Below are positions 1,946 to 63,820 of a DNA stretch of 64,000 bases, piece by piece. Every line of letters starts with the position of its first letter. Within the stretch, counting starts at the first letter, position 1. A model generated the notes under the pieces. It was not told the DNA's origin, made no database searches, and saw nothing but the letters and a program-made list of their open reading frames with translations. This DNA comes from Octopus sinensis (Eukaryota): positions 20,274,001 through 20,338,000 of the forward strand of contig NC_043007.1 of NCBI RefSeq assembly GCF_006345805.1. The letters run 5' to 3'. The position numbers and the translations under genes were made by a program.

Positions 1946-2289
1946 ATATATGACAGGCTTTTACCCTTTTTTGTCTACCAAATTCACTCACAAGGAAGGC
2001 ATAAACTTCCTTGTCTTGATATCACATTATAGTTGTAAATGAGCATCACTGACATGCAAGTGGGAAATAACCCCTTACTTAGAAACAAGAGGTGAGGGTT
2101 AGCAACAGGCATCTGGTTATAGAAAATCTGCCTCAACAAATTCGGTTCAACCCATGCAAGCATGTAAAGATGCTCATTAAAATGAAAAACAATCATGATG
2201 ATGATTCTATGTCCAAATTATGCCAGAAAAAAAATCCCGACACTAGATGTCATGTATCGAGCAATCTATAACCATCACTTTATCATTTA

Positions 2290-24404: not shown

Positions 24405-24895
24405 ATGATAATTCAAGTTGACAGCATTTTATTTGGGGTACTACTTTACTGCTCATGCTGGGTACATGTATTTAGCCATGTTAATCAAGGGTACCCACCC
24501 GGTGTACCTCCTGCAACTGGTGTTCCACAACAAATGCAGTATCAGCAGCAGCAACCTCCACAGTACCAACAGGCCCCTGGTAACCAACAGTACCAACAAC
24601 CACCCTCTGGTAACCAACAGTACCAACAACCACCCTCTGGTAACCAGCAGTACCAACAGCCCCCTGGTAACCAACAGTATCAACAACCACCCTCTGGTAA
24701 CCAACAGTACCAACAACCACCCTCTGGTAACCAGCAGTACCAACAGCCTCCCTCTAACCAACAGTACCAGCAGCAGCAGCATGGTAACCAGCAGTACCAA
24801 CAACAACAACAACAACAACCGCCACAAGGGTCACATGGACATGGACATACACATGGTCATAGCCATAATTTCAAAGACGACTCACATGATCAAGC
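24405..24895 (+). CDS. MCFD2: MCFD2 coding exon 1 (signal peptide, GNQQYQQPPS repeats, His-rich segment)
   Basis: Acceptor ttttttacag ends at 24396, ATG at 24405, donor GC|gtaag at 24896 (phase 2). The acceptor just before the ATG implies an upstream non-coding exon. Confidence 0.9.
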
Positions 24896-27800
24896 GTAAG
24901 TTGTCCATTACATTTTCGGTAACAGAAAAAAAAATGTAGTTACAAATAAAACCACCATATTTTGGTTTATGTGTTTCCAAAATCAGGTCTGCCAAGGTCG
25001 ACTTTGCCTTTCATCCTTTCATCCTCTACTCTAGGAACAAGGCCCGAAATTTTGAGGGAGGTGGGGGCCAGTCGATTAGATCGACCCCAGTATCATCATC
25101 ATCATCATCGTTTAACGTCCTCCTTCCATGCTAGCATGGGTTGGACGATTTTGACTGAGGACTGGTGAACCAGTTGGCTGCGCCAGGCTCCAGATCAAGA
25201 TTGAAGCCTGGTGCAGCCATCTGGTTCGCCAGCCCTCAGTCAAATCATCCAACCCATGCTAGCATGGAAGGTGGACGTTAAACGATGATGATGATGATAC
25301 TGGGGTCGATCTAATTGACTGGCCCCCACTCCCTCAAAATTTCAGGCCTTGTGCCTAGAGTAGAAAAAAAGAAGTTTATTGACAACACAGATGGAATAAG
25401 GGTAAGAGTAGAACATCTTATCTCTCCTCTCTCTCTCCTTCCATTCTCTCACCTACAGAGGTATCTCATGTATCTCTTCTACTGCAGGACACTTGTTCTC
25501 GTCCCTCTATCCATTACTCTAACTTCTCATCACCTATTTCTTTATTGCCCACAAGGGGCTACACACAGATGGGACAAACAAGGACAGACTAATGGATTAA
25601 GTCGATTACATCGACCCCCAGTGCATAACTGGTACTTTATTTAATCGACCCCGAAAGGATGAATGGCAAAGTCGACCTCGGCGGAATTTGAACTCAGAAC
25701 GTAACGGCAGACGAAATACGGCTATGCATTTCACCTGGCATGCTAACATTTCTGCCAGTTCGCCGCCTTCTCATCACCTGGCACTAAACACCCTCAATGC
25801 TACTTCTTCCTCGGTTGAGAGGGGTCTTGTTTTGCAAGTTACATGCTGGCCTCACTGCTACTGGTGCCATGTAACAAGCACCTAACATACTGTGTGAAGG
25901 GGTTGGCTTTAGGAAGGGCATGCAACCATTGTGTATTTCAGCTGGGATGTACACTGAGGCAAAGCTAGACAGCAATTGACTCTTTCCTGCTGGTATTCCC
26001 AGCTTGTCACCAGCTGTTGTTGTTGGCTCGTGTGTTTGTTACTTGAGACACCATTCTCCACTTGAAGTGTTTATGTTTTAAAAATTGTCCATAAACCAAT
26101 TTGTTTGTGATGAGAGGTGTTTGTAAACTGAGATGTGACTGTAATGGAGGAAAAGAAAAAAAGTTGTTTGGGGTAATTAGAAAAACAAAGGGACATAACT
26201 AAATACTGTAAAGCTATCATAGCTGCTTGTGTAATTCACCACGTTCATCATCATCATCGTTTAACGTCCGCTTTCCATGCTAGCATGGGTTGGACGATTT
26301 TGACTGAGGGCTGGCTAACCAGATGGCTGAACCAGGCTCTAATCTTGATCTGGTAGAGTTTCTACAACTGGATGCCCTTCCTAATGCCAACCACTCCGAG
26401 AATGTAGTGGGTGCTTGTACGTGCCACTGGCATAGGGGCCAGTCAGGCGGTACTGGTAACGACCTCGCTCAAATCTTTTTACACATGCCACTGGCGCCCA
26501 GGTGTCAGCAAGGCGATGCTGGTAACAATCACGCTCGAATGGCACCTTTTATGTGCCACTGGCATGGAAGCCGGTTAGCCGCTCTGGCAACGGTCACGCT
26601 CGGATGGTGCTCTTAGCACCCTACTAGCACGGGGCACAAGTGCCAGTAAGGCGAAGCTGGTAACGATCACACTCGAATGGCGCCTTTTATGTGCCACTGG
26701 CATGGAAGCTGGTTAGCCGCTCTGTCAACGATCACACTTGCATGGTGCTCTTTACAGCCCTCTAGCACGGATGCCAGTCATCAAATTTGATTTTAATTTT
26801 GATGTCACTTGCCTCAACAAAGAAATTAATGAGTGCATCATCCCTGGACATTATTGTCTTGAGACCTAGGAATTATAGAGCCAGTTGGCCAATTTCCATG
26901 GGTACACATTTACAAATGAGTGGTATGGAGCAACGTGAAATGAAGTGCTTTGCTCAAGAACACAACGCGTCACCCCGTCTGGGAATCAAAACCACAATCT
27001 TGCAAGTGCAACAAACAAACCACTTACTTTATCTTTTCTGATTAGAAGTATCAACAGGCAATCAGAATTGAACTGAGCCATGAATTTGCTGTGAATATAA
27101 TCTTTTCTACTCTAGGCACAAAGCCTGAAATTTTATGGCCGATGCCTCTGCCGCCTCGACTGTCTTCCGTGCTGGGACACGTAAAATGCACCAATCCGAT
27201 CGTGGCCATTGCCAGCCTCGCCTGGCACCTGTGCAGGTGGCACATAAAAAGCACCCACTACACTCACGGAGTGGTTGGCATTAGGAAGGGCATCCAGCTG
27301 TAGAAACACTGCCAGACCAGACTGAAGCCTGGTGCAGCCTTCTGGCTTCCCAGATCCCCGGTCGAACCGTCCAACCCATGCTAGCATGGAGAACGGACGT
27401 TAAACGATGATGATGATGAGGGGAGACAGTCAATTAGATCAAACCCAGTATGCAACTACTACTTAATTTATCGACCCTGACAAGATGAAAGGCAAAGTCG
27501 ACCTTGGTAGAATTTGAACTAAGAACATAAAGACAGACGAAATACTGCCAAGCATTTCGCCCAGCATGCTAACACTTCTGCCAGCTCGCTGCCTTTTGTT
27601 GTGAACATATTGTTACTTTTAGTGTTTTCATTATTCAATCCATATATTCTATATATGTACAGTAATTCTACTAACAGTGTATATACCATTTGATATGTCC
27701 CACATTATGACGTAACTTCGTTGTCTGTGTGACTGGCCCATACGCCATACCTCACCAACTGACACTTTTTGCTGTGTCTGGCCACTATTTATCAGTAGTG

Positions 27801-30800
27801 GAACAGTCCACCTCTCACTTGGGGATGTCTGCCACAACACCTACCCCCTTTGAGATTTTTGTTTTTCTTCTTTCACACATTTTTTTTTTCATTTCTTTTT
27901 CTTATACACAGAATAATCTTTCTCTTCATAATGCCGCAGATAATACCAGTCTACATTGCTAACGCTACTAACACATAGTAACCTGACTTAAATCCTTCAC
28001 ATGGACTCATTATTTTTCTTCCTCCACACAAAATTATTTTTCTCTTAGAATGCCACAGGTAGTACCAGTCTACATTGTTTACCTGTAGCACTTCTAACAC
28101 ATAGCGAACTGACTTAAATCCTTCAAACGGATTTATATTATTTTTCATAGTTCTGTGTTAGCCTTATCTTCCACTGTGCCTCTTCTCCTTATCTTTTCAA
28201 AGACATACATCATCTCGAAAGAGTCCAGAAGCTGGCTACCCGCATGGTTCTTGGTCTCAAGCATTTGTCTTATGAAGAAAGGCTGAAGACGCTCGACTTT
28301 TATTCTCTAGAAAAACGACGACGCCGTGGTGATCTCATTCTTGCTCACAACATCATAAGCGGAAAGTGTAACCTCTCGAAAGAGCTGTTCTTCACTCCTG
28401 CTCCAGAGTGTCGGCTGCGGGGTCACTCCGAAAAGCTCTATCTGCAACGATTTCATCTCAATCGAAGGAGAGGGGCTTTCTCCGTCCAGGTTGCGGATCC
28501 GTGGAATAAGCTGCCGGACGAGCTAGTGAAGATGCCGACGACCACTCGGTTCAAAGTCTCTCTTGACCAGAAATGGCCTGAACTCTTTGCATGAACACCC
28601 TCCCTGTACATATCTCCATGTCCCCCTACATGGCCTTGCTTTTTGCTTTTTGAGCCAAAAAATGAACTTAACTTCCTCATCACCAGATATAACGACACCA
28701 TTGTACAGTGTGAGGTATTCTTGTCGCCACTGATGTCCTGCATTTTGACGATGCATTTCATCGTCTACATGACTAGCCCAAACAGTATGCCTCACTGACT
28801 GACACTGTTTGCTGTGTCTGTTTACTATTTATCAGTAGTGGAACAGCCCACTTCTCACGTGGGGGTGTCCGCCACAATACCATGTTAATCTTGAATGTTG
28901 ATTTTTGTAAAAATAAATTCCAAGCCACTTCTTGTTATTCTTATGCATGTTTATTTTCGTTGTTTTAGACATATAGCTGAGCATTTGAAAGATTACGCTC
29001 ACAAACCTGTTGATCAAATGACAGACGAAGAAATGGAGTTTCACTACTTTAAACTGCATGATTATGATGACAATAATAAACTAGATGGAAATGAAATTAC
29101 TTCAGCGATAACTCACTTCCAAAGAGGTAAATATAACAGGATTTCAATGATCTTACAATATTTTTTTTTAACATTGAGAATTTATTTTCTAAAATGGAAC
29201 AACATCACTGTGCTGCGTGGGGAAGTTTGAGTGCCTCAGGGTTATATCTTAATATATAAAAGTAAGGTTGTGTGCTGTCTGTCTCCTACGATTTAGATTC
29301 CTAACTACTCCCACATTTTGCGGTGCAGTTTAACCAAAAGCGGGTATCTTATAGTCGTGATTCATATCGAGCCCTTCTGAGTATTAGCGCGCATCTACGA
29401 TGAGTCTACGATTTAAAAAAAAATTTACTATCATTTTTTTCGCTATTATATAAGGGAAGTAACTCTCTAAAAATGTCTACAATGAGTCAACGATTTAAAA
29501 AAAATTTACCATAATTTTTTTCCCATTTTTAATGCATTTTTTTGCTATTTTTTGGCTATAACTCTCTAAAAATGCTTATATAGTTATTTCCCTTACAAAC
29601 CCGAGCAACGCCGGGCGATACTGCTAGTTCACAAATAATGCCAGGTAGAAAGCTGAATTGGATGCTAGAGATGCAGAAGCTGGCACAGTAATATACCAAT
29701 TTGAGAGAGAGAAGTGGGGAGACAGACGGAAGAGGTTGGTGAAAAAGCCAAATTTACTATCTTCTTTTAGACTTTTGTGCCTATCTTCACTTATAGTCAT
29801 GAATGCTGGGTAATGACTGATAGAGTATCATCATCATCATTTAATGTCTGTTGTCCGTTCCGGTGACACATAAAAAGCACCAATCCGATCGTGGCCGTTG
29901 CCAGCCTCGCACCCACTACACTCACAGAGTGGTTGGCGTTAGGAAGGGCATCCAGCTGTAGAAACACTGCCAGATCAGACTGGGGCCTGGAGCAGCCTTC
30001 TGGCTTGCCAGATCCCCGGTCGAACCGTCCAACCCATGCTAGCATAGAGAACAGACGTTAAATGATGATGATGTCCATGCTGGCATGGATTGGACAGTGT
30101 GACTAGAGCATCCAATCCATGCCAGCATGGACAACATGGAGTTAGGTGCAGCTTGCTAGCTAGAGTTAGCTGGCAAGCTGCACCTTACTCCAGTCTGATT
30201 TGGCATGGTTTCTACAGCCTGATGCCCTTCCTAACACCTACCACTCTACAGGGTGTGCTGAGTGCTTTTACATGACACCACACAGGTGCTTTTATGTGAT
30301 GCCTTGCAACCAAAACCGGGTTCGTCTGAAAATGTCTGGAGTAACGTCACTCGATATGGTGTGTGGGGCTCAGAAACTAGAGAATCTCGCAGGAAAGTGT
30401 AATAGTGGTTGCTATGGAGGAGATGAGGACTCTACCACGACAACCCCCTCAGGAACAATAGTTTGAGAAAACGGATGAATGAGTGGTTTGGAAAAGTGAT
30501 AAAGATATTTGTTTATTAATGAGACAATCAATCACATGGTTTTTTTAATTAATTTTTATTTATGAGACAGAGCTGAAATAGGTTTTCTTGGTAGGTACAC
30601 GCCATCATTGTATGGTGAAATTAGAAAATAGCATTTTCACTATTTCTTAATAATTTATTGATGTCGAATACCTGACCTTGCAAAATGTTACAGGAGTACA
30701 ATGTAGTTGGAATGAATAGAAATGTGTTAGGCAAATGAAATAAATTTGCCTCAAGAATTCATGTCCGGTTGAAATCAAATGAAATGTTTTTAAATATCAA

Positions 30801-32045
30801 AAAGACTGTCTTTAGCTATCGAAGCAATGCTATTTCAAAATAACATATGCTGTAGAAAGCCAAACAACTGCATTATTCATCTTAAGGAAGCATCCTATAT
30901 AGAGATATTGTACTAAAAAGCACAGAAGAATATCAATAGCGAACGAAAATTGGATCTTTTCAGTTTGACCGGTAGATTTTTAAAATAATTTCTACGTAAC
31001 TAAACACTTTTAAACTTCGTATACTGGTAGAATGTGTTTATAAAACATTTTTCTCTTGGCTTTATTGAGAAAATTCTATAGTTTGTAGGTATTTGTTGTT
31101 TTTTTTTCCCTTCAATTTCTGCAATTTCAAACAATCACTGACGTCTATTGAGGTAAAAAAAAAACATTCTGTGCTGTATGAATATGTCCCTCATTTAAGA
31201 AACAGATTGGGTTTATTTACATTTCTGAGAAGAAAAAAAAAGATCCCCCCCCCCCAACTCTAAAACAGATTGAAATGCAATAGATCGATACTAGGGTCAT
31301 AATTATGGGTGACAATTTCATGACACTGCCGTTCAAATCGAAAAGATCCCAAAAATTGTCCAACACTGCTGGTGGCTTTCTTGAGATGAATACCAAAGTT
31401 GTGTAACTTTCTACAGTATGTTCACATTAAATAAGATATACAGAATATTACCAAAAAGACTATTTTCTTAAATGCCAAATCTATACAGAATTATTTAGCG
31501 TATGAAATTATATGCAATTAATTTATAATTATGCTGTATTTTGAGAAAATTAATCTTTAATCTGTGAATTTAAATTATTTAGTGTATGAAATTTTTATTT
31601 ATTTTATTTTTTATTTTATCTAGTTTCAGCTCACGAGCTGTGGCCATGCTGGGATGAAATTATATGCAATTAATTTATAATTATACTGTATTTTGTTATC
31701 AAATGTATTTTGAGAAAATTAATCTTTAATCTGTGAATTAAAATTATTTAGTGTATGAAATTATATGCAATTAATTTATAATTATATTGTGTTTTGTTAT
31801 CAAATGTATTTTGAGAAAATTAATCTTTAATCTGTGAATTTATCGACCTTGCCCTTTCAGAAGACCACCAAGATGCAAATGCCGCAGCAGCTCGAACAAT
31901 GTCGGATACGGAGATCTCGGATATTGTTGATATGGTATTAAAAGAAGATGACCTAAATAACGATGGGTATGTTGAATACTCAGAGTTTGCAACAGCCCAA
32001 CGGAGGGCGAAAGCCAACATGGCAAAAAATGAAGTCCATAAATAA
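24405..32045 (+). CDS. MCFD2: MCFD2 homolog (ER-lumenal EF-hand cargo-receptor subunit), 3 coding exons 24405-24895, 28969-29126, 31861-32045; 834 nt, 277 aa
   Basis: Spliced by hand: signal-peptide-like MIIQVDSILFGVLLYCSCWVHVFS, a Q/P/Y repeat, a His-rich stretch, then HDQAHIAEHL..MTDEEMEFHYFKLHDYDDNNKLDGNEITSAITH and IVDMVLKEDDLNNDGYVEYSEFATAQ. These match the MCFD2 motifs and its two EF-hands from memory. Phases 2/2 and 1/1 agree and all introns are GT-AG. Confidence 0.93.
24578..24817 (+). repeat. Coding tandem repeat, 27-30 bp unit, GNQQYQQPP(S), 8 NQQYQQ cores
   Basis: ggtaacca(a/g)cagtaccaacaaccaccctct units inside MCFD2 exon 1. Confidence 0.92.
25025..25365. repeat. ~340-bp fold-back palindrome of a chimeric SINE junction in MCFD2 intron 1
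   Basis: ctctactctagg..gaccccagta(tca)n.. mirrored by ..(gat)n actggggtc..cctagagtag; centre about 25195. Confidence 0.9.
28200..28680 (+). mobile_element. CR1/L2-group LINE 3' end (MCFD2 intron 2)
   Basis: [62 protein letters not shown], followed by a 3' UTR. Confidence 0.9.
28969..29126 (+). CDS. MCFD2: MCFD2 coding exon 2 (EF-hand 1)
   Basis: tgttttag|A CAT ATA GCT GAG; encodes HIAEHLKDYAHKPVDQMTDEEMEFHYFKLHDYDDNNKLDGNEITSAITHFQR; donor G|gtaaat at 29127. Confidence 0.93.
31490..31842. repeat. AT-rich tandem triplication immediately upstream of the MCFD2 exon 3 acceptor
   Basis: gtatgaaattatatgcaattaatttataatta..ttgagaaaattaatctttaatctgtgaatt occurs three times. Confidence 0.8.
31861..32045 (+). 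CDS. MCFD2: MCFD2 coding exon 3 (EF-hand 2, stop)
   Basis: gccctttcag|AA GAC CAC; encodes EDHQDANAAAARTMSDTEISDIVDMVLKEDDLNNDGYVEYSEFATAQRRAKANMAKNEVHK*; TAA at 32043-32045. Confidence 0.92.
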
Positions 32046-35700: not shown

Positions 35701-38700
35701 ACCTCCACCATCACGAAGAAAGAATAAGTACTGGGGTCAATTTAATCAGTGCCCCAGTACAACTGCAGTCCAATGAATTAAACAAGTAAACGATAGAACA
35801 AGTTATTCATTCAAAACCAAAGTCATTAAAGTTGATACAATTCTTTTGGCTTAAATATAACAAATACAATATTGTCTTACAAATTCGATATTTACCTGAT
35901 GAAATATCAATATTATGTCGGTCTTCTTCTAATCTTCGTATTCTGTCTTCCAGTTCCTGTTTTACTGTATCATACAATATTATTTTGTCACTCTGGAAAA
36001 AGACAGGGGAAAAAAAATAAAAAACAGTGTTCATTATAAGAACTAAAGCAAATTCTCAAAAGATGTGTTGTGAGGTCAATAAGCTCTCTTTGCAACCATG
36101 TGGGTTTAGGTTCAGTCCCACTGTGTGGCACCTTGGTCAAGTGTCTTCTGCTATAGTTATTTCTTTATTGTCTACAGGGGGCTAAACATAGAGGGAACAA
36201 AACAAACAAGGACAGACGAAGGGATTAAGTTGATTACATCGACCCCCAGTGTGTAACTGGTGCTTATTTAATCGACCCCGAAAGGATGAAAGGCAAAGCT
36301 GACCTCGGCGGAATTTGAACTCAGAACGTAAAGGCAGACAAAATACTGCTAAGCATTTCGCCCACATTGCTAACGATTCTGCCAGCTTGCCACCCTTCTG
36401 CTATAGTCCCTGGGCCAACCAATGCCTTGTGAGTGAATTTGATAGACAGAAACTGTGAGGTAGCCTGTTGTGAATGTATGTATGTGTGTGTGTACATGTA
36501 TACACTTATATGTGTGAGTTTGCGTATATATATATATATATATACGCACACTCACACACGTCCATGTGTGTGCCGGTGTGTTTGTTCCCACCCACCAACT
36601 AACCATTTGACAAGGAATGTTGGTTTGTTTACATCCCAATAACACAGCAGCTTGACAAAAGCAACTGAGAGAATAAATAACTGGCTTAAAAAATATGTAC
36701 TGAGGTCATTTGTTTGACGAAACCCTTTCAGGCACTGCTCCAGCTTGGTCGCACTCCAATGAGTGAAACAAGTAAAAGGTGAAGTAAAACTCAACAGAAG
36801 ACAATACTTACTTCCATGTTCTGTCTTGCAGCCACCTCTTCACTTTCAAATTTACACTGAATTGACTGTAATCGAAGCTCTTTCAAAATACCTGAAAGAG
36901 AGAGAGAGAGAAAGGGGACATGAAATTTCGTAAGACTCCCATAGCAAATTAAAATTGTATAGAAAAATAAAGTGCCACAATTGGATCTTTTCGGTTTGAA
37001 CGGCAGTTTTTTCTAGCGGTGTCATATGAAATTGTCACCCATAATTATGACCCTAGTATCGATCTATTGCATTTCAATCTGTTTTAGGGGTTGGGGGAAG
37101 GATATCTTTTTTTCTTCACAAATGTAAATAAACCCAATCTGTTTCTTAAACGAGGGACATATTCATACGGCACACAATGTTATTTTTACCTCAACAGATG
37201 TCAGTGATTGGTTGAAATTGCAGAAATTGAAGAAAAAAAACAACAAATATCATACAAACTATAGAATTTTCTCAATAAAGCCAAGAGAAAAAGATGTTTT
37301 ATAAACACATTCTACCAGTATACGAAGTTTTAAATTTTTTAGTTACCTAGAAATTATGTTAAAAACTGCTGTTCAAACCAAAAAGATCCCCCACAATTTT
37401 TGAAATCAGCATATAGGAACAAATTAAAATGTCAATAGAAAAAATAATATTCACGATTATATTTTATAGTACGTGTAAAAAGCGCCATCCGAATGTGACT
37501 GATGCCAGCACTGCCTCAAGTGGCTCCCATGCCGGTGGTACATAAAAAGCACCATCCAAATGTGGTCGATGCCAGCTCCCTCTGGTCCCTGTGCCGGTGG
37601 CACGTAAAAAGCACCCAATACACTCTCGGAGTGGTTGGCATTAGGAAGGGCATCCAGCTGTAGAATCACTGCCAGATCAGATTGGAACCTGGTGCAGCCT
37701 CCTGGCTTCCCAGACCCCAGTCGAACTATCCAACCCATGCCAGCATGGAAAACAGGCGTTAAACAATGATGATGGTGATGTATTCATAAAAATAATTATA
37801 ATTTCAAATATTGGCACAAGGCCAGCAATTTTAGGGGGAACAGACAAGTTTATTATGTCGACCCAAGTGCTCAGTTTGTGCTTTGTTTCATCAACCCTGG
37901 AAGGATGAAAGGCAAAGTCGACTGTGGTAGTATTTGAACTCAGACTGTAAAGCCAGAAGAAATACCTATTTCTTTATTGCCCACAAGGGGCTAAACATAG
38001 AGGGGACAAACAAGGACAGACAACCTGATTAAGTCGATTATATTGACCCCAGTGCGTAACTGGTACTTATTTAATCAACCCTGAAAGGATGAAAGGCAAA
38101 GTTGGCCTCGGCAGAATTTGAACTCAGAACGTAGCAGCAGACAAAATACCGCTAAGCATTTCGCCCAGTGTGCTAACATTTCTGCAAGCTCGCCAGAAGA
38201 AATACCACTAAGCATTTTAAGTTAAGTTATCATCATCATCATCGTTTAGCGTCCGTTTTCCATGCTAGCATGGGTTGGACGGGTCAACTGGGGTCTGTGA
38301 AGCTGGAAGGCTTCGTCAGGCCCAGTCAGATCTGGCAGTGTTTCTACGGCTGGATGCCCTTCCTAACGCCAACCACTCCGCGAGTGTAGTTAAGTTAATT
38401 TTTTGGCTCAAAAAGCAAAAGCAAGGCCATGTAGGTGGACATGGCATTATGTACAGCATGCAAAGGGTGTTCATGCAAAGAGTTCAGGCCATTTCTGGTC
38501 AAGAGAGTCTTTGAACCGAGCAGTTGTCGGCATCCTCACTATCTCGTCCAGCAACTTATTCCATGGATCTGCAACCCGGACGGAGAAAGCCCCTCTCCTT
38601 CGATTGAGATGAAATCGTCGCAGATAGAGCTTTACGGAGTGACCCCGCAGCCGACGCCCTGGAGCGTGAAGAACAGCTCTTTCGAGAGGTTACACTTTCC

Positions 38701-41700
38701 GTTAATGATGTTGTGAGCGAGAATGAGATCACCACAGCCTCGTCGTTTTTCTAGAGAATAAAGGTCGAGTGTCTTCAGCCTTCCTTCATAAGACAAATGC
38801 TTGAGACCAAGAACCATGCGGGTAGCCAGCTTCTGGACTCTTTCGAGATGCTGTATGTCTTTGAGGAGATAAGGAGTAGAGGCTTGAATCCCGTACTCCA
38901 ATATGGGTCTCACCAGCATGACATAGAGCGGTAGGAATATGGCTGCTGTGTCGGGTATGCTAACGATTCTGCTAGTTCACTGCCTAAAAACTGTGATATG
39001 ATTGGAATGAGGAAAGCTTACTTTAGAAAAGCTAAGATCAAATTCCTTGTACATGAAGAAGATGCAGGTAACAAGGAAGAGTAACAAGGAAGAGTAACAA
39101 GAACTTTAGAATCAGTTGCCAAGTTTATTGTGAAGTTCTTTGGAGGGTAGAAATAGCGTTAATTCTTTACTGCTTTGATGATTTTTAATGGTGAAGTTAA
39201 AGATGCTACTATCATGGGAGAAAATTACAAAGCAATTAAAAGTAACCAAGACAAGTCAAAGAAAAGCAAAAGCACTCCACCTGCTACTTGTATTCGTATT
39301 GTCATATTTTCTTCCAACTGAGCTAATGGACGCCAATAATCCTGTGCTTTACCTGCACGAATTTCTTCTAGTTTTTCATCAACTTGTTTTACCCTTTCCT
39401 CATATAACCTGAAATTAGAAAGACAGCCACGTTATAAATTACCTCCTGAAAGAAGGATAAACATTTTACCTGTAATAAAAGGTAAATGCATGAAAGGTGC
39501 AAGAAGCAAAACTGTGTTTTCACTCATTATTTGAAGCATTATGATGTAATTAACATTAAATTAGAAAGTCTTTATTCCTGGTCAAAAAGAAACAAAAACC
39601 TGAAAACATCGTTTGAAGGCCACGGTCCAATGTTTGACTGAAACAAGTAAAAGATAGAGATTTGCAATGTTTGAAAAAAAACAGTCGAGCGAGGTCGTTG
39701 CCAGTGCCGCTGGACTGGCCCCTGTACAGGTGGCACATAAAAAGCACCATTTGAGCGTGGCCGTTGCCAGTACCGCCTGACTGGTCTTCGTACCAGTGGC
39801 ACATAAAAAGCACCCACTACACTCTCGGAGTGGTTGGCGTTAGGAAGGGCATCCAGCTGTAGAAACTCTGCCAGATCAGATTGGAGCCTGGTGCAGCCAT
39901 CTGGTTCACCAGCCCTCAGTCAAATCGTCCAACCCATGCTAGCATGGAAAGCAGACGTTAAACGATGATGATGATGACAACTGAACATGAACAGCTACTG
40001 TGAGAAATGAAGACTTACCGTTCTTTTAAAGCTGAAAATTGATGTTCTAATGTTGCCATGTCTTCAAGACATTCTGCACGCCGTCTTTCTGATTCTTCTT
40101 CATCAATTTCTATTGAAGAAAGCAAAGTGTAAAGTTAAACAAGGTAAATAGGAGTAAAGTCAGATCACAAAATAAGTGTTAGTGACTCCTAACTTCTTAG
40201 AAATCACACCTCCACCATTTTGAAAAAAGAAAGGACCCATTAGGTAATGTAATCCTAAATGCTCAAAAGTGGATTTTAAAAATGTAGGATAGAACATGTG
40301 TAAAAAGATTCGAGCAAAGATCGTTGCCAGTACCGCCTGACTGGCCCCGTGCTGGTGGCATGTAAAAAGCACCCACTACACTCTCGGAGTAGTTGGCATT
40401 AGGAAGGGCATCCAGCTGTAGAAACTCTGCCAGATCAAGATTGGAGCCTGGTGCAGCCATCTGGTTCGCCAGCCCTCAGTCAAAATCGTACAACCCATGC
40501 TAGCATGGAAAGCAAACATTAAACGATGATGATGAGAACACTTTAGATCATAGGTCTACTTAATCAGAGTAAATCTGGTGCCAACAACATAACCAGTTAA
40601 AAAGATGATACAATTAAAAGCTTAAAAATAGACAAGCTCAGCAATTAAGAAATGGGGTAGAATCTGGAATCTGAAAAAATAGGGGACAGTCTAGGCTGGC
40701 AACACAGTCTTGAGGAGAGTTTGTGAAAGAGTTCAAGAAGTTAAATTGCAGTAAGGAAGTGAGAGACTAAATTGTATTGTTACTTTGGTTACAAGTATAT
40801 AAATGTCTAGCCTACAAATGAAATGACTGTGTCACTTTCTCTCTCAGGCAAACTGCAGGTGTCTGAAATGCTATATCCATCTTTACTAACAACTAAAGCA
40901 ATATTTGTATTTAACCCTTTCGTTACTGTATTTATTTTGGGATGCTCAGTGTTTCTTTCAATTAATTTTAACTATTACAAAGAATTTAGTAACATAATTT
41001 CGTTATCATTAAGTTAGGAACATAAATTGTGACTAAGGTTTGGCAGAAGATTTTTATTGAAAACTTATGAAAACAAGACATTTGTACTGCAGAGCCAGAG
41101 AAGGTTTCAGGTAGGTTGATATCAAAAGGGTTAAATGCACCTCTACATTTGGGCAGATGCACATGAGAAGCAACTGGAAGGGTGTGGATTGATGGAAATT
41201 TAGGCTGTCATTTCTAGCATATAGAGTGACCACATTGAGGTCTCCTCTTATGTCTTCTGCTGATTATTTTCCTTTTTAACCCTTTCATTACAGTATTTAT
41301 TTTGAGATGCTCTGAGTTTCTCTCAATTACTTTAAATATAACAAAGAATTTAGTAAAATAACTTGGTTATTATTCAGCTAGTGTTAGGAACATAAATCGT
41401 GACTAAGGTTTAGTGGAAGATTTTAATTCAAAACTTATGAAAACAAGACATTTGTACTCAGAGCCGGTTTCAGCCAGGTTGTTAATGAAAGAGTTAAACA
41501 GTCTTGTTTCTTTCCAGTTCATACTGCAAAATATTCATGGTGATATGTTTCTAAGACTATAAGAAGCTGAACTGTTCTTAGAAAATCTATCTTTTCACAA
41601 AGCATTTCTGCCCTTGCTAAGCATTATCAGCCCAACATTATAGTGGAGGACATTTGCCCCAGGTGCTGTATAATGGGGCAGAAGACAGGGCTGTGCAGTA

Positions 41701-49286: not shown

Positions 49287-50129
49287 CACTTTCTTGAAAT
49301 GTATCCGGTACCTATACCGAAGTTACGCCAGTTTTTTTGTTAAACAGACCAAATTTCGTTAGTCGTGTGATGTTTCATTGGAAATTATACAACAGTACCA
49401 GAAGCAACATTTTGGAAAAGCGATCCTTCGAAGTTTCATTCGACGCGATGAACAAAAAGGGTACTCTTTTTACTTGTTTCAGGCATTTGACTGCGGCCAT
49501 GCAGGAGCACCGCCTTTAGTCGAGCAAATCGACCCCGGAACTTATTCTTTGTAAGCCCAGTACTTAATCTATCAGTGTCTTTTGCGGAACCGCTAAGTGA
49601 CGGGGACATAAACACACCAGCATCGGTTGTCAAGCAATGCTAGGGGGACAAACACATACACACACACACATATATATACATATATACGACGGGCTTCTTT
49701 CCGAGGCTATAGTAAAAGACACTTGCCCAAGGTGCTACGCAGTGGGACTGAACCCGGAACCATGTGGTTGGTAAGCAAGCTACTTACCACACAGCCACTC
49801 TTGCGCCTATCGACTTTTCTTTCCATCCTTTTAGAGTCAATAAAACAAAGTACCGGTCAAGTACTGGAATTGATGTAATCAACTAGCCCCTGCTCCCTAA
49901 AAAAAAATGCTGACCTCATGCCAAAATTTGAAAGAATTTTTATTGTGGTAACAGCAACACATTTGCTTCGAATTATTCGTTGAGTTTTGTTTATTCTTAA
50001 TTATCTTTTGCCCATTTATTCACAAAAATTTTGCACTGTGTGAGAGATTTCCGAGAGAATATAAATAATGAATATACAAAAGAACTCCTTGTGGAAATAT
50101 ACTCATAACAGGAATAAAGTAAGTAACCC

Positions 50130-51420
50130 TTCTCAGGTCTTTCCCATCGAACATGGCCTTACTCAAAATAGGCAGTCTGAATGCAAATGGACTGAAGTCG
50201 CCCTGGAAACAGGGCCATCTGCTCAACGACCTCAGATCACTTGATATAGAGGTTATGGCCATCAGCGAGAGCAGAGATTCTGAGGTACGAACCTTCGCGC
50301 CCATCTTTGGTGATTTACGAGGTGTGTGTATTTTTATGTCTGCCGGGAATGAGACGTGGAGTCTCTGTATTGTCTCGGAAAGACACTGGATTTTGACTAT
50401 CTCCCTGGACCCATCAGGTAAGTCGGTGGTGCTGGATATGACCACCAGCGAAGCCTATACCTTCAGACTAATAGATATCTACTCCCCAACAGGAGTGAGG
50501 TAACTAGATTTCTTGAGGCATCTGCAAGCTTTCCTAGGAACATCCCATAGTACCAGTGGGTGATTGGAACAACATCTTTGATGCCTGCAGGGATTAAGTG
50601 GACACATTGGGCACACGGTGGGTGATGATGCACTGAGGTTACAACTCCAGCAATTCCTAGACGATAAACAGATGTGATCTTCGTTTGTCAGACTTCCATT
50701 TCCACAGCTTGTCTCTTTGACAGAACTGCAATCCTAAACCAAGCGAAGACCAAGGCAGGGCACTTGGCGTCTGGAATATCAAGTGCTCACTGCCCTCTAT
50801 CAAGAGAGTAGTGCAGTCGATGGAAGTTCCATCATGGCGTTCTTTAGTAGGTTAGTGACAGGTAAGAGCGACGATGTTCTCGAGGAAGCCTTGGTCATCG
50901 ACAAGAACCAACTAGCTGATATGTTCTGGAGGACTTTCGGGTCGGAACCCATAGATAATTTCCAGAAATCATTGGGCTGGCAGTGCTTGCAAGAGGAAAG
51001 TCCAGTTAGCAACAAAGTACTGACATGGAATGCCATTAACCGAGCCTGCCCAAGATGCGTGCAAAGCAGCGAAACTGTTCTGCATGCGCTCGTCCAGTGC
51101 CCGAACTTTGCTGACTTATAGGTTTATGTCGAAGAGTTGCTGCCAGGTGTATGACGGATCCAGCTATCGGCTTTAGATCGTCCCCCTACCTTCCCTTGGT
51201 CCCGGAAAAACAGGCAGTGCTTATCACTCTGGTGATCTTAGAGAAAGAAGTTGAGTGGTGGGCTAAATTGAAAGGGGTGATGTCAGGTACCTCTCTGTCT
51301 GGCCAAACCCTTATTGACTTCTCCAAGATTCACTTGAAAAGATAAGTGCGGATAGAGAGGCAAGTGCTGTCTCCCAGCAAATTTGTTGAAAGATGGATGA
51401 GAGAGGTGACATAGTCTTTG
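50130..51420 (+). mobile_element. Tx1/L1-clade LINE relic: APE endonuclease start joined to C-terminal zinc knuckle, RT mostly missing
   Basis: MALLKIGSLNANGLKSPWKQGHLLNDL..AISE (APE motif I/II) and CPRCVQSSETVLHALVQCP (CCHC). Confidence 0.8.
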
Positions 51421-54188: not shown

Positions 54189-54232
54189 ATGAAGATTGGA
54201 TTTATTTTATTGTGTCTCATCTACTCAGCCAG
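54189..54232 (+). CDS. FReD gene exon 1, signal peptide [14 protein letters not shown]
   Basis: aaaaATGaag context, hydrophobic core, AG|gtatgt donor whose phase 2 matches the acceptor at 57476. Confidence 0.75.
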
Positions 54233-57200: not shown

Positions 57201-57772
57201 GAAATGTTCATCTGATTCTCCACTTGATGGTTTCCACTAGTCCAAATCACCGGGTTACTTAAAACTAATACTTAATTCAGATAATGTCAGAAAGGCAATT
57301 GCATAATTTCTCGCAGACTCTGGTCCTGCTACTGATAGCCTTTGCCCCTAAAATCTTAATGATGATATCTCCTTGTTGGCCAGAGTTTCTGGCCAAGAAG
57401 GCGGTGAGCTGGCAGAAATGTTAGCACACTGGGTGACGTTAATAATGAATGCCTTTTTTTCTCCTTTTGATTTCAGATGTGAAAGTGGAAGCAAACAGGA
57501 TATTTCTCTCTGGTATAAAGATATGATAAAACAGGGAGCTTTTGAAGGGGATTTGACTTCAGCTCAACAAGAAGTGAAAAAATCTGTAGAGAAAATAATT
57601 AAAAGTTCAATGAAAAGTCAAAGATTGTTTGACAGAGAAAAACTTTTAGCTTATGAAAATATTTTAAATTTGAATGACAATAGGGATTCTGATGATGACG
57701 ATGAAACGGAATTAGATGATGATGATGATGGTGATGATATGGGTAACAATAACGAGGAGGTCAGTGTGCATG

Positions 57773-57806
<34 letters not shown>

Positions 57807-60800
57807 TGATGATGATAATGTGGAGAAGGAAAATTTTAAAAGTCAGCATGTCAAAGGTGATATCTTAGTGAAATCTTCAACAACAATAAAATCTAAAAAT
57901 AATGTCTCTGAAAATATGACAAATTTGAAAAGGATGAAAAAATTATTAGATGAAAAGCAAACGGACGATAAGGCCGAACAGATTCCCAAAAGAGAAGAAC
58001 CAACAGCTGAGATATTGCAATCCAATGAAACCAAAACAATGTTTGAAAAAAAATCCGTTGAGAAAAAGATTAGCACCAGGATTCCAAAAGGTTCTGTTCG
58101 ACATTTGTACAAAACTTGCTATAGTAATTTTTCCAGCCGTTTAGATATATTTTATGCATATGAGAAGCAACGTAATGAACTTTTCCAGAGAGAAGAATAT
58201 TTAGATAATAAATCTATGCAACCAAATTGGTTTTTTAAAATCTTATACCAGATTCAGCAAAGCCAAATGATTTCACCTTCACCAAATATTCTAAAAATGT
58301 CAAAAGTATTTAAAAAATCAAAGACATCTAAAAGCAAATATAAAATAAAAAACATAAAACGTTGTTTAAGAACCTCAGATTGTCCGAAAGTATGTCGATA
58401 TTTCTTTGAATTTCAAATGTGCATACCTGGATTTAATTGGATAAGGAATAGTTCCGATAAGAACTGTTCTTATTTTGTTCAGTGGGAAGCTTTTCCTAGA
58501 AAGGAAAATTTTGGAATTAATTTTAATAAAGAGTCATTTGACAATGACCAGAAGAAGCTTCAAGGAGATACTGTCAAAATAAATGAAAAGTTCAAAGATG
58601 AAAAGATCAAAGATGAAAAGATCAAAGATGAAAAGATCAAAGATGGAAAGATCAAAGATGGAAAGATCAAAGATGAAAAGATCAAAGATGAAAAGATCAA
58701 AGAGGAAAAGATCAAAGATGGAAAGATCAAAGATGGAAAGATCAAAGATGAAAAGATCAAAGATGGAAAGATCAAAGATGGAAAGATCAAAGATGGAAAG
58801 ATCAAAGATGGAAAGATCAAAGATGAAAAGATCAAAGATGGAAAGATCAAAGATGGAAAGATCAAAGATGGAAAGATCAAAGATGAAAAGATCAAAGATG
58901 GAAAGATCAGAGATGGAAAGAAAATGTTGGATAAAACTGGCAAGAATAAGGAAAAATTTATTGGAAATAAGATCAAAGAAAATTCGCATACTTCAGATAA
59001 TAAGAAACAAAATAATAGAATGTCAACCAAAACAAAACCGTCTTTTGATGATTCACAAAATAAAATTGAAAAGGATGAAAAGAAAATAAAGGAAATGAAT
59101 GTGAATGAAGAGGTAAATAGTAAAGGAAAAAACATTCAGTTGAGGAAAATATTATGGAAACTCCTCAAGGTAAATTATTTAATCAAAGATTAAAAACAGA
59201 AAACGGTGTGGATATTGGTATGGTTAATAAGATAATTGATGAGAAGTCAAATGAATATTTGATCAAGATCCAGTCACTAGAGCTAGCTGTAACAAAATTG
59301 GAGAAACAACTGCTAACAGGACAGCTGAGCAGAAGTAATGACCTGTTGTCATTAGCTCAACTTGAAAGCCAGATTCTTCATTTACAGACAAAATTAATGA
59401 AACTCAATCAGACATTCATCAAGCTTCAACAAGAGAACCAAGTTTTGAAACATGGTCAACAGAAAATCTTCGAACTCCGACAACAGAACGAGAGACAATT
59501 GACGAGTAACTTTGATGTGAATAATAAGATTCACAACCAGAATAATTTAATCAAACAACAACAAAAAAGTGTTGCTGATTTGTCTCATTTGATACAAAAT
59601 CAATCAAATCTTCTTAGTAAATTAACTCATCGACAAGAACAGGTAGAAGAAGAAAACAGAATACTTCATCAAGTTGTTATGAACCAGTCTTTATATATTT
59701 CCCATGTCTTGAAGACGGTTCATGTGTTGACCAATCAGATGCAAGAAGAACGTATTCAGGAAAGTTCTAAGAAATTTAACATGTTTCCAGTTCAATTAAT
59801 TAAAAAGTTAGAATCATTGATATCTGACAGGCAAATAGTTAAAAGTGAGAAAACAGAAAAACATGTCAAAAAGAAAGGGAAATCGAGAAATATAACTTGT
59901 AAAAAACCTCAGATTTCTGTGGGAAAATATTTTCATGACAAACCAGTGGTAAAACAAAATAGGTTAAAGTATAGGTATTTCACTCTTTTATCGAAATCCT
60001 GCCTCGTATTTGATAACATAGATAAACAATCTTTGCCAAATTTACCAGCATCTTCAACTCAGTATAAATTAAACAAGAACGGAACCGTAAATAAAACCAT
60101 TGCAAGAAAGAAACAGGAAACTCCAAAGAGCCCAACACTTCCACAAAAAAATCAGTCGAGTAAATTTAAAATGCAGGAACCAAAAGTTAAAGAAACTGAA
60201 AAAAGCACTCAGAATGTGAGAAAAATAAAAGATGAACCGAGTGTTAAAATTAAGAAAGAAAATGATATGAAGGTAAAAGATGGGAATTCAGATGGAAAAA
60301 ATCAACAGCAAAGTCATAATTCTGATAAAGTCAAGCCAAAAGTAGCTTCCCATAGTAAAAAGGAATCTGTTGAGGCCCCTGCTGGTCAGAAGCCAACAAA
60401 GGGTTCTGAGACTAATATGAAGAATAATAAAGAAGAAAAAGAAGGAAACAAGAAAATGAACAATAAAAACTTCGAACTGAAGGAACCACTCTATGTTGAT
60501 ACAAGACAGAGCGGACCAAAAGGTAAGATGGTTTCAATTGTTAAGGTCTACTGTGGAGGCACATGGCCTAGTGGTTAGAGCAGCGGACTCGCGGTCAAGG
60601 AATCGCAGGTTCAAATCTCAGACCGGGCAATGTGTGTGTTTATGAGTGAAACACCTAAGCTCCATGCGGCTCCGGCAGAAAGTAATGGCGAACTTCTGCT
60701 GACTCTTTCGCCACAACTTTCTCTCACTCTTTCCTCCTGCATCTTGCAGCTCACCTGCGATGGACCGGCATCCCATCCAGGTGGGGAACCTTTACGCCAA

Positions 60801-62503
60801 GGAAACCAGGAAACTCTAATGGCCTGGAGAACTATGATGAATAAGAGTGGACTAAGAACTGATCTCTGGTGTACTCCAACCTGTACATTAAATTCATCAC
60901 TGTATTCAAGGCCAACTCTCACCTTACTGACAGCATTACTGTACATGGCTTGAACTGCTCTCACAAGCCACTCCTCTACTCCTAGCTTCCTTAGAGACCA
61001 CCACATAAGGGCCATTTGCCTGCTGGAATGAGAGTCTTATATCTCCTTTCTTGCTAATAACAACTTTAGTCTTAGCTAAGTTAACTTTAAGGCCCTTCGA
61101 TTCCAGGTTTTGTAGCAGCCTGCTGGCCACTTTTGTCCCCATCTATAAGGGTATTTTACCCAGTCCCCTAAGCTGTTTTCACTGATATTCTCCTGCATTC
61201 AAGATTTCCTTCATTTCTAAAATACCAACTCACTTGATGTTTGTTCCTTCTCGAGCCATGTCTGGCTCATAAGGGCCAGTTTCCCAGTTTCCTTGGCGTA
61301 TAGGTTCCCCACCTGGACGGGATGCCGGTCCATCGCAGGTGAGCTGCAAGATGCAGGAGGAAAGAGTGAGAGAAAGCTATGGCGAAAGAGTCAGCAGAAG
61401 TTCGCCATTACCTTCTGCCAGAGCCACATGGAGCTTAGGTGTTTCGCTCATAAACACACACATTGCCCGGTCTGAGATTCGAACCCGCGATCCCTCGACC
61501 GCGAGTCCGCTACTCTAACCACTAGGCCATGTGCCCCCACAACTCACTTGATGCATCAATGTTTGTTTATAAAAATATTCCCACAGAGTAGCCTTGTTTA
61601 TTCTTTATCCTTTATCTTTTATTTGTTTTAGTCAGTAGACTGCGGCCATGCTGGGGCATTGCCATGAAAAATTCTTTTGATGAATGTCTCAACCCCCAGT
61701 ACTTTTTGTTTAAAATCCTGGCACTTATTCTATCAGTTATTTTGCTGAACTCCTAAGTTACAGGGGTCATAAACACACTAGCACTGATTGTCATGTGATG
61801 GTGGGAGGACAAAAATAGACAGAAAACACACACACACACAGGATGAGCTTCTTTCAGTTTCCGTCTACCAAATCCACTCACAAGATTCTGGTTGACTTGA
61901 GGCTATAGTAGAAGACACTTCATCAAGGTGCCATGCAGTTGGACTGAACCCCAAACTATGTGGTTGGGAAGCAAGCTTATTTTATTTCTTTATTGCCCAC
62001 AGGGATCTAAACATAGAGGGACAAACAAGGACAGACAAACGGATTAAGTTGATTATATCGACCCCAGTGCATAACTGGTACTTAATTTATCGACCCCAAA
62101 AATGATGAAAAGCAATATTGACCTTGGCGGAATTTGAACTCAGAACGTAATGGCAGATGAAATACCACTAAGCATTTTGCCCGGCATGCTAAAGTTTCCG
62201 CCAGCTCACCGCCTTCTTGCCACACAGCCATTCCTGCACCTTTATAATAAACTAAAAAAAATTGGGTTCTTTCTCAATCTGTGTTGTTTTAAATCTTATT
62301 TCCTTCCGTTTCAGACTGCTATGATTTATATGTGAAAGGAAATTCCAAGAATGGTGTCCATAAAATAAAGCCTATTGCTGCATCGAAATCCCTAGATGTT
62401 TTCTGTGATATGAAAAACGGTGGCTGGACTGTAATACAACGACGCCAAGGAGGAACGATAAGCTTTAAGCGAGATTGGAATAGCTACAAAAAAGGCTTTG
62501 GAG
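54189..62503 (+). CDS. Large secreted angiopoietin-like / fibrinogen-related (FReD) protein, 5' part; exons 54189-54232, 57477-60522 (frame break at ~59130) and 62315-62503; gene continues beyond the window
   Basis: Signal peptide [14 protein letters not shown]|R-CES (phase 2/2). Long low-complexity region, then a coiled coil with KLEKQLL (angiopoietin-like). SGPK-D|[54 protein letters not shown] is the classic start of a fibrinogen C-terminal domain (phase 1/1). Confidence 0.85.
56508..57025 (+). mobile_element. Internally deleted mariner with both TIRs and TA target site, in FReD intron 1
   Basis: Left end ttaggttgaggaaaaagtttgtgcaccatgttagaataatg matches the reverse complement of the right end; TA flanks at 56506-07 and 57026-27; [23 protein letters not shown] remnant. 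Confidence 0.88.
57477..60522 (+). CDS. FReD gene exon 2, ~3.05 kb, in two overlapping ORFs (57373-59193 and 59154-60578 frames)
   Basis: Acceptor ttttctccttttgatttcag at 57476; donor AAA G|gtaaga at 60523. Long stop-free frames in 70% AT DNA; the frames differ by -1 at the A run 59127-59132. Confidence 0.8.
58588..58917 (+). repeat. Coding minisatellite: 22 x 15 bp aagatcaaagatg(a/g)a = KIKD[E/G] pentapeptide
   Basis: Direct reading: first unit KFKDE, last unit KIRDG; in frame within exon 2. Confidence 0.95.
60555..60816 (+). mobile_element. tRNA-derived SINE; inverted partner at 61278-61538 (-)
   Basis: Head ggcacatggcctagtggttagag..ggttc(a/g)aatc; the two copies are closely similar over about 260 bp. 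Confidence 0.88.
60816..61140 (-). mobile_element. RTE-clade RT fragments
   Basis: [16 protein letters not shown] and [40 protein letters not shown]. Confidence 0.8.
62315..62503 (+). CDS. FReD gene exon 3, first fibrinogen-domain exon
   Basis: tccttccgtttcag|AC TGC TAT; [14 protein letters not shown]...F.RDW..YK.GFG; donor G|gtaata at 62504. Confidence 0.92.
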
Positions 62504-63274
62504 GTAATATTTTATTTTTAATTATATTCATTTTTCATCAACATTATCACTTAACCCTTTAGTGTTCAGATTATTCTATCAAACGTAATGCTTATTGATT
62601 CCCATTGATTTGAATTAATCATGCATTATCTCATATCTTCAAGATCTTGATGGTGTAATTACTTAATGTAGAATAACATTGTAGGGTAGGTGTGAGAGCC
62701 TGGATCTGGTCGGTTTGAACATAAAACAGATTAAATATTTTGGCCGGATACGGCCGGTTTAAATACTAAAGGGTTAATGCCCATTTTTCCATGCTTGCCT
62801 GAATCTATTAGAGATAGACCTTCCTGTTGCCAACCGTTACTTGTTTCCAAGTAAGATGCCATTTCTACATGGCTGGATTTGTTTTTGCTGGGTATTAAAA
62901 ATGATACGATCCTGCTGGTATGACAGCTACCCTTATTAGCAAATATCACATGATGTCAAGGTAAGGAAACACAAACACACACACTCACCACACACACATA
63001 TGCCAGGCTTCTTTCAGTTTCCATCAACCAAATCTACATGCAAGTTTTTGGTCGACCTGATCTACATTAGAAGTCACTTGCCCCAGGTGCCACATAGTGG
63101 AACTGAACCCAGAATCATGTGGTTGGGAAGCCATCTTCTTTATTTCATTATATTTGCCATAAAGGCAGTACATAGAGTAAAATAGCTTTGCGGGCTGGAC
63201 AAGGACATGAAATGAATGATAATGAAAGAAAGATGATAAGGATGGGAGAAGACAGAAAGCGCCCACCAACTTCT

Positions 63275-63820
63275 TCTTCTCTAAAACATTGTTCTTTAAA
63301 ACCAAACACAAAACGGGGTATTAAACCTCTTACAACTTTACCATATTCTGAACGCCTTACTTCCCTGGGCATGGACACATTGAAACTCCGACGCCTGGCA
63401 GCTGACTTGGCAGACACCCATAAAATTATCAACCATCTTACTAACAATAACTCTGAGCACTTTTTCAAACTCCACCCATCTAACACCCATGGACATGTTT
63501 ACAAAGTCAGAAAACAGCACAGCTCCCATGGCTTTCGGAAACATTTTTTCACGCTGAGAGTTGCTGAAGCATGGAACAAACTGCCGGCATCAGTTGTTAG
63601 TTGTCGGAGCACTGCATCCTTCAAAACTTCCATGCTTCCTGAGATTCGCCAACACTACACCTGATTTTCTCCCCTCCATACACACGCAAGCATGTATCTG
63701 ACTCATACACTGTTCACTTCCCAGACATTTGTACATTACTGCATATGCTTTATACGCACTTTTGACAAGTTGTGGTGCACCTGAGCACTGTGTACAATAA
63801 TTTCATTATTATTATTATTT
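63275..63820 (+). mobile_element. CR1/L2-group LINE 3' end, different family, (ATT)n tail
   Basis: LPYSERLTSLGMDTLKLRRLAADL..HFFTLRVAEAWNKLPASVV..; tail cattattattattatt at about 63803-63818. Confidence 0.88.

What the first reader, a model, noticed from the sequence alone, without database searches (positions are those of the whole stretch)
59125..59193. Frame break in the FReD gene sits on a canonical -1 slippery heptamer with a spaced hairpin
Seen: exon 2 runs 0-frame to TAA at 59191-93, while the coiled coil and the splice into the fibrinogen domain are in the -1 frame. At the switch the 0-frame reads GGA AAA AAC, giving A_AAA_AAC (59127-59133). A 6-nt spacer follows, then a 7-bp stem ttgagga (59140-46)/tcctcaa (59162-68) with a 15-nt loop. 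A -1 slip gives [16 protein letters not shown] and opens a further 463 codons. The 27- and 30-nt mini-introns visible here do not restore frame. Known: A_AAA_AAC is the MMTV gag-pro -1 site, and heptamer + 5-9 nt spacer + structure is the standard -1 PRF layout. Inference: PRF would yield two secreted products, about 586 aa without the FReD and over 1100 aa with it, which is unusual for a non-retroviral cellular gene. The more parsimonious explanation is a 1-nt deletion in an A homopolymer (assembly error or null allele); the stem is weak, and the 0-frame stop is far upstream of the next junction (an NMD target).
Basis: partly seen in the sequence, partly recalled or inferred. Interest (0 to 1): 0.75.

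Follow-up and report, generated by a model that had tools for sequence, protein, structure and literature searches.

The report
Assembly error mimics ribosomal frameshift
The apparent programmed frameshift in this octopus fibrinogen-domain gene is not real: the assembly lacks one base that every sequencing run covering the spot contains, so the gene reads through as one ordinary long protein, and the base was likely lost where two alleles differ.

Summary
The heptamer, spacer, 7-bp stem and frame break are in the window as described. The break is an assembly error. Of 8 public runs laid on the stretch, 6 cover the site, and all 6 carry one extra base 3-4 nt after the heptamer: T in 2, C in 4. 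They span 5 studies and 3 organism labels and include a spliced transcript contig. With the extra base the gene encodes one 1252-aa protein: predicted signal peptide, long charged stalk, predicted coiled coil, fibrinogen C-terminal domain. Argonauta, abalone, oyster and freshwater-mussel relatives are continuous too. The two runs of one sample show T and C, so the consensus likely dropped the base at a heterozygous SNP, a published artefact of long-read assembly. The slippery site is weak evidence: 10 in-frame heptamers lie in this exon, and the hairpin is unremarkable in context. Two earlier unreviewed notes of this scan report the same kind of artefact elsewhere in this genome.

The parts
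54189..54232 (+). Candidate coding exon 1 (ATG plus hydrophobic signal-peptide-like 14 codons, phase-2 donor)
   Evidence: Best-scoring ATG..GT candidate in a script scan of 29000-57400; gives 586 aa as assembled and 1252 aa read through. Not confirmed by reads.
57477..60522 (+). Large coding exon 2 (3046 nt in the window, 3047 nt with the missing base): conserved N-terminal motif, Asn/Asp-rich and Lys-rich stalk, coiled-coil-like segment
   Evidence: both halves align in order to one Argonauta protein; donor at 60522 used in contigs of X3, X10, X17. The acceptor is inferred from sequence and from the start of P0001.
58583..58921 (+). In-frame 15-nt coding minisatellite, 22.6 copies, encoding D-(E/G)-K-I-K; absent from the Argonauta relative
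   Evidence: Not covered by the read layings.
59127..59133 (+). A_AAA_AAC heptamer (six A's in the window and in all six covering runs); one of 10 in-frame heptamers in exon 2
59134..59137 (+). Site of the missing base: runs read one more T (X1, X3) or one more C (X5, X10, X2, X14); codon 569 is Ser or Pro
   Evidence: Table 4 and contig lengths in table 8
59140..59168 (+). 7-bp stem with 15-nt loop, weak, not significant in context
59191..59193 (+). TAA that ends the 0-frame only in the assembled sequence; out of frame once the missing base is counted
62315..62503 (+). Coding exon 3, first part of the fibrinogen C-terminal domain. Exon 4 with the rest and the stop lies beyond the window (L002:6245-6723)
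   Evidence: tblastn with P0001; Pfam PF00147 E 2.9e-18 and 3.4e-45; loose ends of X3, X10, X17 at 60522 continue into this exon

Best explanation
The frame break is a one-base omission in the assembled sequence: every run that covers the site has one more base (T or C) just after the heptamer, the reading frame is then continuous, and the base was likely lost when the consensus merged two alleles at a T/C SNP. Shown: the extra base in 6 of 6 covering runs; both letters occur; an open 1252-codon frame across four exons; continuous relatives. Inferred: the two alleles read T-T-T-C and T-T-C-C, noisy long reads of both agree only on T-T-C, so a haplotype-merging consensus drops a base, and short-read polishing likely left it because support was split between two different insertions. 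Also inferred: the product is a secreted protein that would oligomerise through its coiled coil and bind a ligand or matrix partner through its C-terminal fibrinogen domain, as angiopoietin-like and other FReD proteins do.
For:: X1 (T, one contig over the whole stretch, 1632 letters on 1631, no other difference), X5 (C), X3 (T, one 2471-nt contig over 58930-60522 that runs on into exon 3, so it is spliced), X10 (C). X2 (C, organism B), X14 (C, organism D, 97-99% alike over its contigs). No run lists an indel in the A-run and none shows a joint (tables 4, 5). Leaving out the runs flagged as possible source or of the same sample (X1, X5, X2), three runs of three studies remain (X3, X10, X14). 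X1 and X5 share sample S1 and differ in the letter. One match only in the own genome, so a paralogue is unlikely to supply the reads. Read-through with N gives 1252 aa without a stop. P0001 (Argonauta, 1063 aa) aligns to both halves (38% and 42%). 14 of 37 relatives hold the 0-frame N-terminal motif and the -1-frame coil in one chain, and 4 of 37 also the FReD. PMC5632298 (passages) reports indels introduced in merged regions at nucleotides that differ between haplotypes; 10.1101/2020.05.22.110833 (passages) reports short consensus indels causing frameshifts as the commonest long-read assembly error.
Against: All runs are Logan contigs, not raw reads; contigs drop rare variants, so a minority deletion allele would not show. 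The X14 contig has depth 4.2, under the tool's warning level of 5. Heterozygosity of the assembled animal is inferred from two runs with one sample label, which may be different individuals; a plain homopolymer under-call at a homozygous site would fit as well. The sequencing technology of this assembly was not established. Alignment to P0001 alone does not tell the extra-base reading from the slip reading (BLOSUM62 scores 100 and 104).
Confidence: 0.96

Rival explanations
1. The assembled animal really carries a one-base deletion allele (a heterozygous null, likely degraded by NMD), and the assembly shows that haplotype.
For: Contigs can hide a second allele (tool note). The premature stop would lie 1329 nt before the next junction, so RNA contigs would be depleted of it.
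Against: The two DNA-type runs of sample S1, the possible source, show T and C with full-length contigs and no contig with the short form; if S1 is one diploid, both alleles are already accounted for. No DNA run of any covering sample shows the deletion (X1, X5, X2, X14). A true deletion falling exactly on a segregating T/C SNP would be a coincidence.
Confidence: 0.03
2. One reading: programmed -1 frameshifting is needed to join the two halves and gives a 586-aa and a full-length product.
For: Canonical layout in the assembled text: X_XXY_YYZ heptamer, 6-nt spacer, stem-loop (layout as in PMC7618472, passages). It is the best stem behind any of the 10 heptamers of the exon.
Against: The mRNA contig of X3 and five other runs are in frame without any slip. 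On the real sequence a -1 slip meets a stop after three codons rather than opening the FReD frame. The Lys-Asn dipeptide that the heptamer encodes aligns to Arg-His in Argonauta.
Confidence: 0.003
3. The gene is intact, but the heptamer plus hairpin (7-nt spacer) still makes some ribosomes slip -1 and stop three codons later, releasing a 570-aa N-terminal product or triggering decay.
For: Heptamer and stem survive the correction, and no covering run lists a change in them; a 7-nt spacer is within the usual 5-9 nt (PMC7618472); stop three codons after the slip.
Against: Weak stem (-6 to -7 kcal/mol, 15-nt loop; z -0.93 and +0.12 in context); heptamers are common in this A-rich exon; not conserved in Argonauta at the protein level. 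The covering runs are nearly identical here, so lack of change shows nothing.
Confidence: 0.02

Closest known systems
Indels introduced by haplotype-merging long-read consensus (PMC5632298, passages read; 10.1101/2020.05.22.110833, passages read)
   Same: A single-base loss at a position that differs between haplotypes, producing a false frameshift in a coding exon, absent from short-read contigs and transcripts.
   Different: The assembler, read type and heterozygosity of this assembly were not established; inferred from two runs of one sample label.
Argonauta hians 'angiopoietin-4-like, partial' (P0001) and its relatives in Haliotis rubra (P0006), Potamilus streckersoni (P0014) and Crassostrea virginica (P0050)
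   Same: Long N-terminal region, matching coiled-coil-like segment and C-terminal PF00147 in one chain of about 1060-1320 aa; 534 identical of 1055 aligned columns to P0001; FReD exons 80-85% identical.
   Different: This copy has a 15-nt coding minisatellite (about 110 aa) that P0001 lacks. No tree was built, so orthology rests on similarity outside the FReD.
Molluscan single-FBG FReDs (sFReD; PMC7588048, passages read) and vertebrate angiopoietin/ANGPTL, ficolin, FGL1 proteins
   Same: C-terminal fibrinogen domain with the PS00514-type motif and the terminal EMKI motif; best solved relatives of exon 4 are ficolin-2 and ANGPTL2 (E about 1e-36).
   Different: About 1030 residues precede the FReD; no IgSF or collagen family was found in them. 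The name 'angiopoietin-4-like' is an automatic label, not evidence of Tie binding.
-1 programmed ribosomal frameshift signals such as MMTV gag-pro (PMC7618472, passages read)
   Same: X_XXY_YYZ heptamer followed at 5-9 nt by a predicted structure.
   Different: No overlapping downstream ORF in the real sequence; weak hairpin rather than a pseudoknot; not conserved. That A_AAA_AAC is the MMTV gag-pro heptamer is recalled; the passages read name only its pseudoknot.

Membership tests
-1 programmed ribosomal frameshift gene | Two overlapping ORFs out of frame by -1 in the real genome and mRNA | tested here: not met
   6 of 6 covering runs (8 laid) have an extra base that makes one ORF
-1 programmed ribosomal frameshift gene | In-frame X_XXY_YYZ heptamer | tested here: met
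   59127-59133; but 10 such in exon 2
-1 programmed ribosomal frameshift gene | Stable stimulatory structure 5-9 nt downstream | tested here: inconclusive
   7-bp stem at the right distance, -6.4 kcal/mol; z -1.97 alone, -0.93 and +0.12 in context. Pseudoknots were not searched for.
-1 programmed ribosomal frameshift gene | Frame break and signal conserved in relatives | tested here: not met
   Relatives are single chains; K-N aligns to R-H in P0001. Their DNA was not seen.
-1 programmed ribosomal frameshift gene | Measured slippage (reporter, ribosome profiling, transframe peptide) | not testable with these tools
Consensus indel at a heterozygous site | Assembly letter count unsupported by independent sequence data | tested here: met
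   0 of 6 covering runs match the window at 59134-59137
Consensus indel at a heterozygous site | Site is heterozygous in the assembled individual | tested here: inconclusive
   X1 (T) and X5 (C) share sample S1, flagged as possible source; raw reads not available; one label need not be one animal
Fibrinogen-related domain (FReD) protein | Complete C-terminal PF00147 domain with PS00514-type motif and terminal EMKI motif | tested here: met
   Pfam hits on exons 3 and 4; motif at residue 1194 of the read-through, pattern as quoted in PMC7588048
Fibrinogen-related domain (FReD) protein | Signal peptide | tested here: inconclusive
   Hydrophobic candidate exon 1 from a script scan; no dedicated predictor and no reads across exon 1-2
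Gastropod FREP (IgSF + FBG) | One or two IgSF domains before the FBG domain | tested here: not met
   No Pfam family on either half of exon 2 or on the N-terminal part of P0001; Pfam may miss divergent Ig folds
Angiopoietin / ANGPTL proper | Orthology to vertebrate angiopoietins and receptor binding | not tested
   No tree built; binding not testable. PDB hits rank ficolin, ANGPTL2, tachylectin and angiopoietin-2 closely together

The most novel reading that the evidence does not exclude
The intact mRNA still uses the A_AAA_AAC heptamer and the hairpin 7 nt downstream to send a fraction of ribosomes into the -1 frame, where they stop after three codons, giving a secreted 570-aa stalk-only product or NMD-coupled tuning of a cephalopod FReD gene, with the neighbouring T/C SNP in the spacer possibly changing the rate.
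Probability: 0.02. Interest if true: 0.55.

Novelty: not a real feature. Interest (0 to 1): 0.04.

Why it matters
As biology it is ordinary. A conserved -1 frameshift in a non-retroviral animal gene would have been notable, since few conserved nuclear cases are known (start of the abstract of PMC11451614, search listing), but the sequence data remove it. The practical lessons: the gene model here should be corrected to one 1252-aa FReD protein; single-base frame breaks in this genome need a read check before any recoding or pseudogene claim; and counting only the nearest homopolymer is not a sufficient test, because the missing base here sits in a different run.

Tried and rejected
1) Seventh A in 59127-32: rejected, no indel listed there in 6 covering runs. 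2) Mini-introns restoring frame: the 27- and 30-nt stretches keep the frame and a 19-nt one (59170-88) shifts the wrong way; no joint in any of the 8 runs. 3) Paralogue as read source: one match in the own genome (only best candidates are scored). 4) Locating the indel by protein alignment: uninformative (scores 100 vs 104); a base put in behind any of 72 places (59121-59192) opens the exon. 5) Search for a natural short N-terminal-only protein of 314-1000 aa: none of 4910 candidates scored; the search is insensitive, so this is not evidence. A second search with P0001 residues 370-700 found only P0001. 6) No RNA holder is on record as RNA; X3, X10 and X17 are treated as transcript-derived only because their contigs skip the intron at 60522. 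7) X9 and X17 have no contig over the site and are left out of the count of 6. 8) Searches had off-by-one exon borders; the corrected borders are those. 9) Paper search 'cephalopod' + 'programmed ribosomal frameshift' gave 4 papers, none by title on a cephalopod gene (listing only); search 'fibrinogen-related/octopus/angiopoietin' gave 151, 15 listed, none by title on this gene (listing only). 10) No earlier finding near this place. No structure prediction or tree was run, as neither bears on the frame break. Supplements of the papers were not read; none bears on the main claim.

Full report
Observation. A 0-frame ORF ends at TAA 59191-93 and a -1-frame ORF is open from 59124 to 60578. A_AAA_AAC lies at 59127-33, followed by 6 nt and a perfect 7-bp stem (59140-46 / 59162-68, 15-nt loop); 463 codons run from 59133 to the donor at 60522; the 27- and 30-nt GT..AG stretches keep the frame.

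The decisive test. The look-up of sequencing runs listed 24 runs, 20 holding half or more of the words. Six have a contig across the site, and all six have one base more than the window at 59134-59137: T in X1 and X3, C in X5, X10, X2 and X14. Contig lengths agree (for example X1 and X2: 1632 letters on 1631; X3: 1594 on 1593; X14: 558 on 557). X9 and X17 have no contig there. None of the six lists an indel in the A-run, so it has six A's as in the window, and no run shows a joint inside the stretch. The six runs come from 5 samples, 5 studies and 3 organism labels (A, B, D). X1 and X2 are flagged as possible sources of this DNA and X5 shares a sample with X1; without them X3, X10 and X14 remain, from three studies. 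The X14 contig has depth 4.2, so it counts only because it agrees with the rest. The X3 contig (2471 nt) covers 58930-60522 in one piece and continues with the first bases of exon 3 at 62315, so it is a spliced transcript and it carries the extra base.

What the gene is. With N for the missing base, exon 1 (54189-54232), exon 2 (57477-60522), exon 3 (62315-62503) and exon 4 (L002:6245-6723, beyond the window) translate to 1252 aa without a stop. Codon 569 is Ser with T and Pro with C, so the site is a non-synonymous SNP. Exons 3 and 4 match Pfam Fibrinogen_C, with the PS00514-type motif at residue 1194. An Argonauta hians protein of 1063 aa, labelled angiopoietin-4-like, aligns to the 0-frame half (38%) and the -1-frame half (42%) in order. 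A search of 1.84 billion representatives with the -1-frame half gave 36 hits. Of these plus P0001, 14 of 37 hold the N-terminal motif and the coil in one chain, 5 of 37 the coil and the FReD, and 4 of 37 all three; those without a FReD are probably single-exon ORF calls (inference). Of 10 hits looked up, three clusters carry names: Haliotis rubra, Crassostrea virginica, Potamilus streckersoni; five relatives scanned all have PF00147 at the C terminus. So this is a long FReD protein found in cephalopods, gastropods and bivalves. Secretion, coiled-coil oligomerisation and ligand binding are inferred from architecture; no coiled-coil or signal-peptide predictor was run.

How the error likely arose. 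The two alleles read T-T-T-C and T-T-C-C; the window reads T-T-C, the part common to both. X1 and X5 carry one sample label and show T and C. PMC5632298 (passages) says that merging haplotypes in long-read assembly introduced indels at some nucleotides that differ between haplotypes. 10.1101/2020.05.22.110833 (passages) names short consensus indels causing frameshifts as the commonest error before polishing. This step is inferred: raw reads were not available, one sample label may cover more than one animal, the technology behind this assembly was not established, and a simple homopolymer under-call fits too. Two unreviewed notes of this scan report frameshifts in zinc-finger arrays of this genome as probable consensus errors, one of them at polymorphic bases; I did not test them, and my reading was fixed before I saw them.

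The slippery site by itself. Exon 2 is A-rich (AT skew 0.29 in 58001-60000) and has 10 in-frame heptamers; 200 of 993 67-nt zones contain one. The hairpin is -6.4 kcal/mol alone (12 of 200 shuffles as good) but ordinary in context (35 of 200 for 67 nt; 106 of 200 for 100 nt), and 159 of 3005 40-nt windows fold as well. On the corrected sequence a -1 slip meets a stop three codons later, so it could only truncate the protein. The Lys-Asn pair aligns to Arg-His in Argonauta. Protein alignment alone cannot place the indel (scores 100 vs 104; any of 72 insertion places opens the exon); only the runs do.

Verdict. Not a real feature: a one-base assembly omission in an ordinary FReD gene (0.96). A true null allele in the assembled animal remains at about 0.03, because contigs can hide a variant. 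Leaky, truncating slippage on the intact mRNA is not excluded (0.02; it is compatible with the main reading). Frameshifting needed to reach the FReD is refuted (0.003). Paper searches found nothing by title on this gene or on cephalopod frameshifting (listings only). PMC7588048 was read in passages for FReD/FREP definitions; PMC11451614 was seen only as a listing with the start of its abstract. That A_AAA_AAC is the MMTV gag-pro heptamer is recalled and comes from no call.

Noticed in passing
window 58583-58921: In-frame 15-nt minisatellite, 22.6 copies at 95% match, encoding D-(E/G)-K-I-K; absent from the Argonauta relative.
   Followed up: partly
window 60024: A>G difference: G in 6 of 8 runs (X5, X3, X10, X9, X14, X17), A in X1, X2 and the window. 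By hand from the sequence it changes Lys to Glu. X1 and X5, one sample label, differ here too, and here the consensus kept a base.
   Followed up: partly
window 59421-59426, run X5: X5 contigs break at an AAGCTT site with loose ends that form a doubled junction, as in HindIII proximity-ligation libraries (recalled); such a library may come from another animal than X1.
   Followed up: no
P0001-P0037, P0050: The protein belongs to a mostly unnamed molluscan group with a conserved N-terminal motif of about 70 aa, a long variable stalk, a coiled-coil-like segment and a FReD; no Pfam family covers the N-terminal motif.
   Followed up: partly
window about 24400-32000: A gene with a signal-peptide-like start, Gln/Pro-rich repeats, a His-rich patch and EF-hand exons (EF-hand_7 only at E 0.005, below cut-off); it resembles MCFD2 (name recalled, not tested).
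   Followed up: partly
window 28151-28594, 38632-38976, 50123-51121, 60611-61036, 63176-63664: Short ORFs resembling decayed LINE reverse-transcriptase or endonuclease ends (recalled resemblance); the two scanned (60611, 63176) gave no Pfam match.
   Followed up: partly
window 1426-1974 (- strand): ORF resembling a decayed mariner-type transposase (recalled); no Pfam match.
   Followed up: partly
window 60550-60640 and 61450-61540: Two related SINE-like repeat copies in opposite orientation inside the intron after exon 2, seen by eye.
   Followed up: no
window 57773-57819: In-frame AAT run (15.7 units) giving poly-Asn inside an Asp/Asn-rich stretch of exon 2.
   Followed up: no
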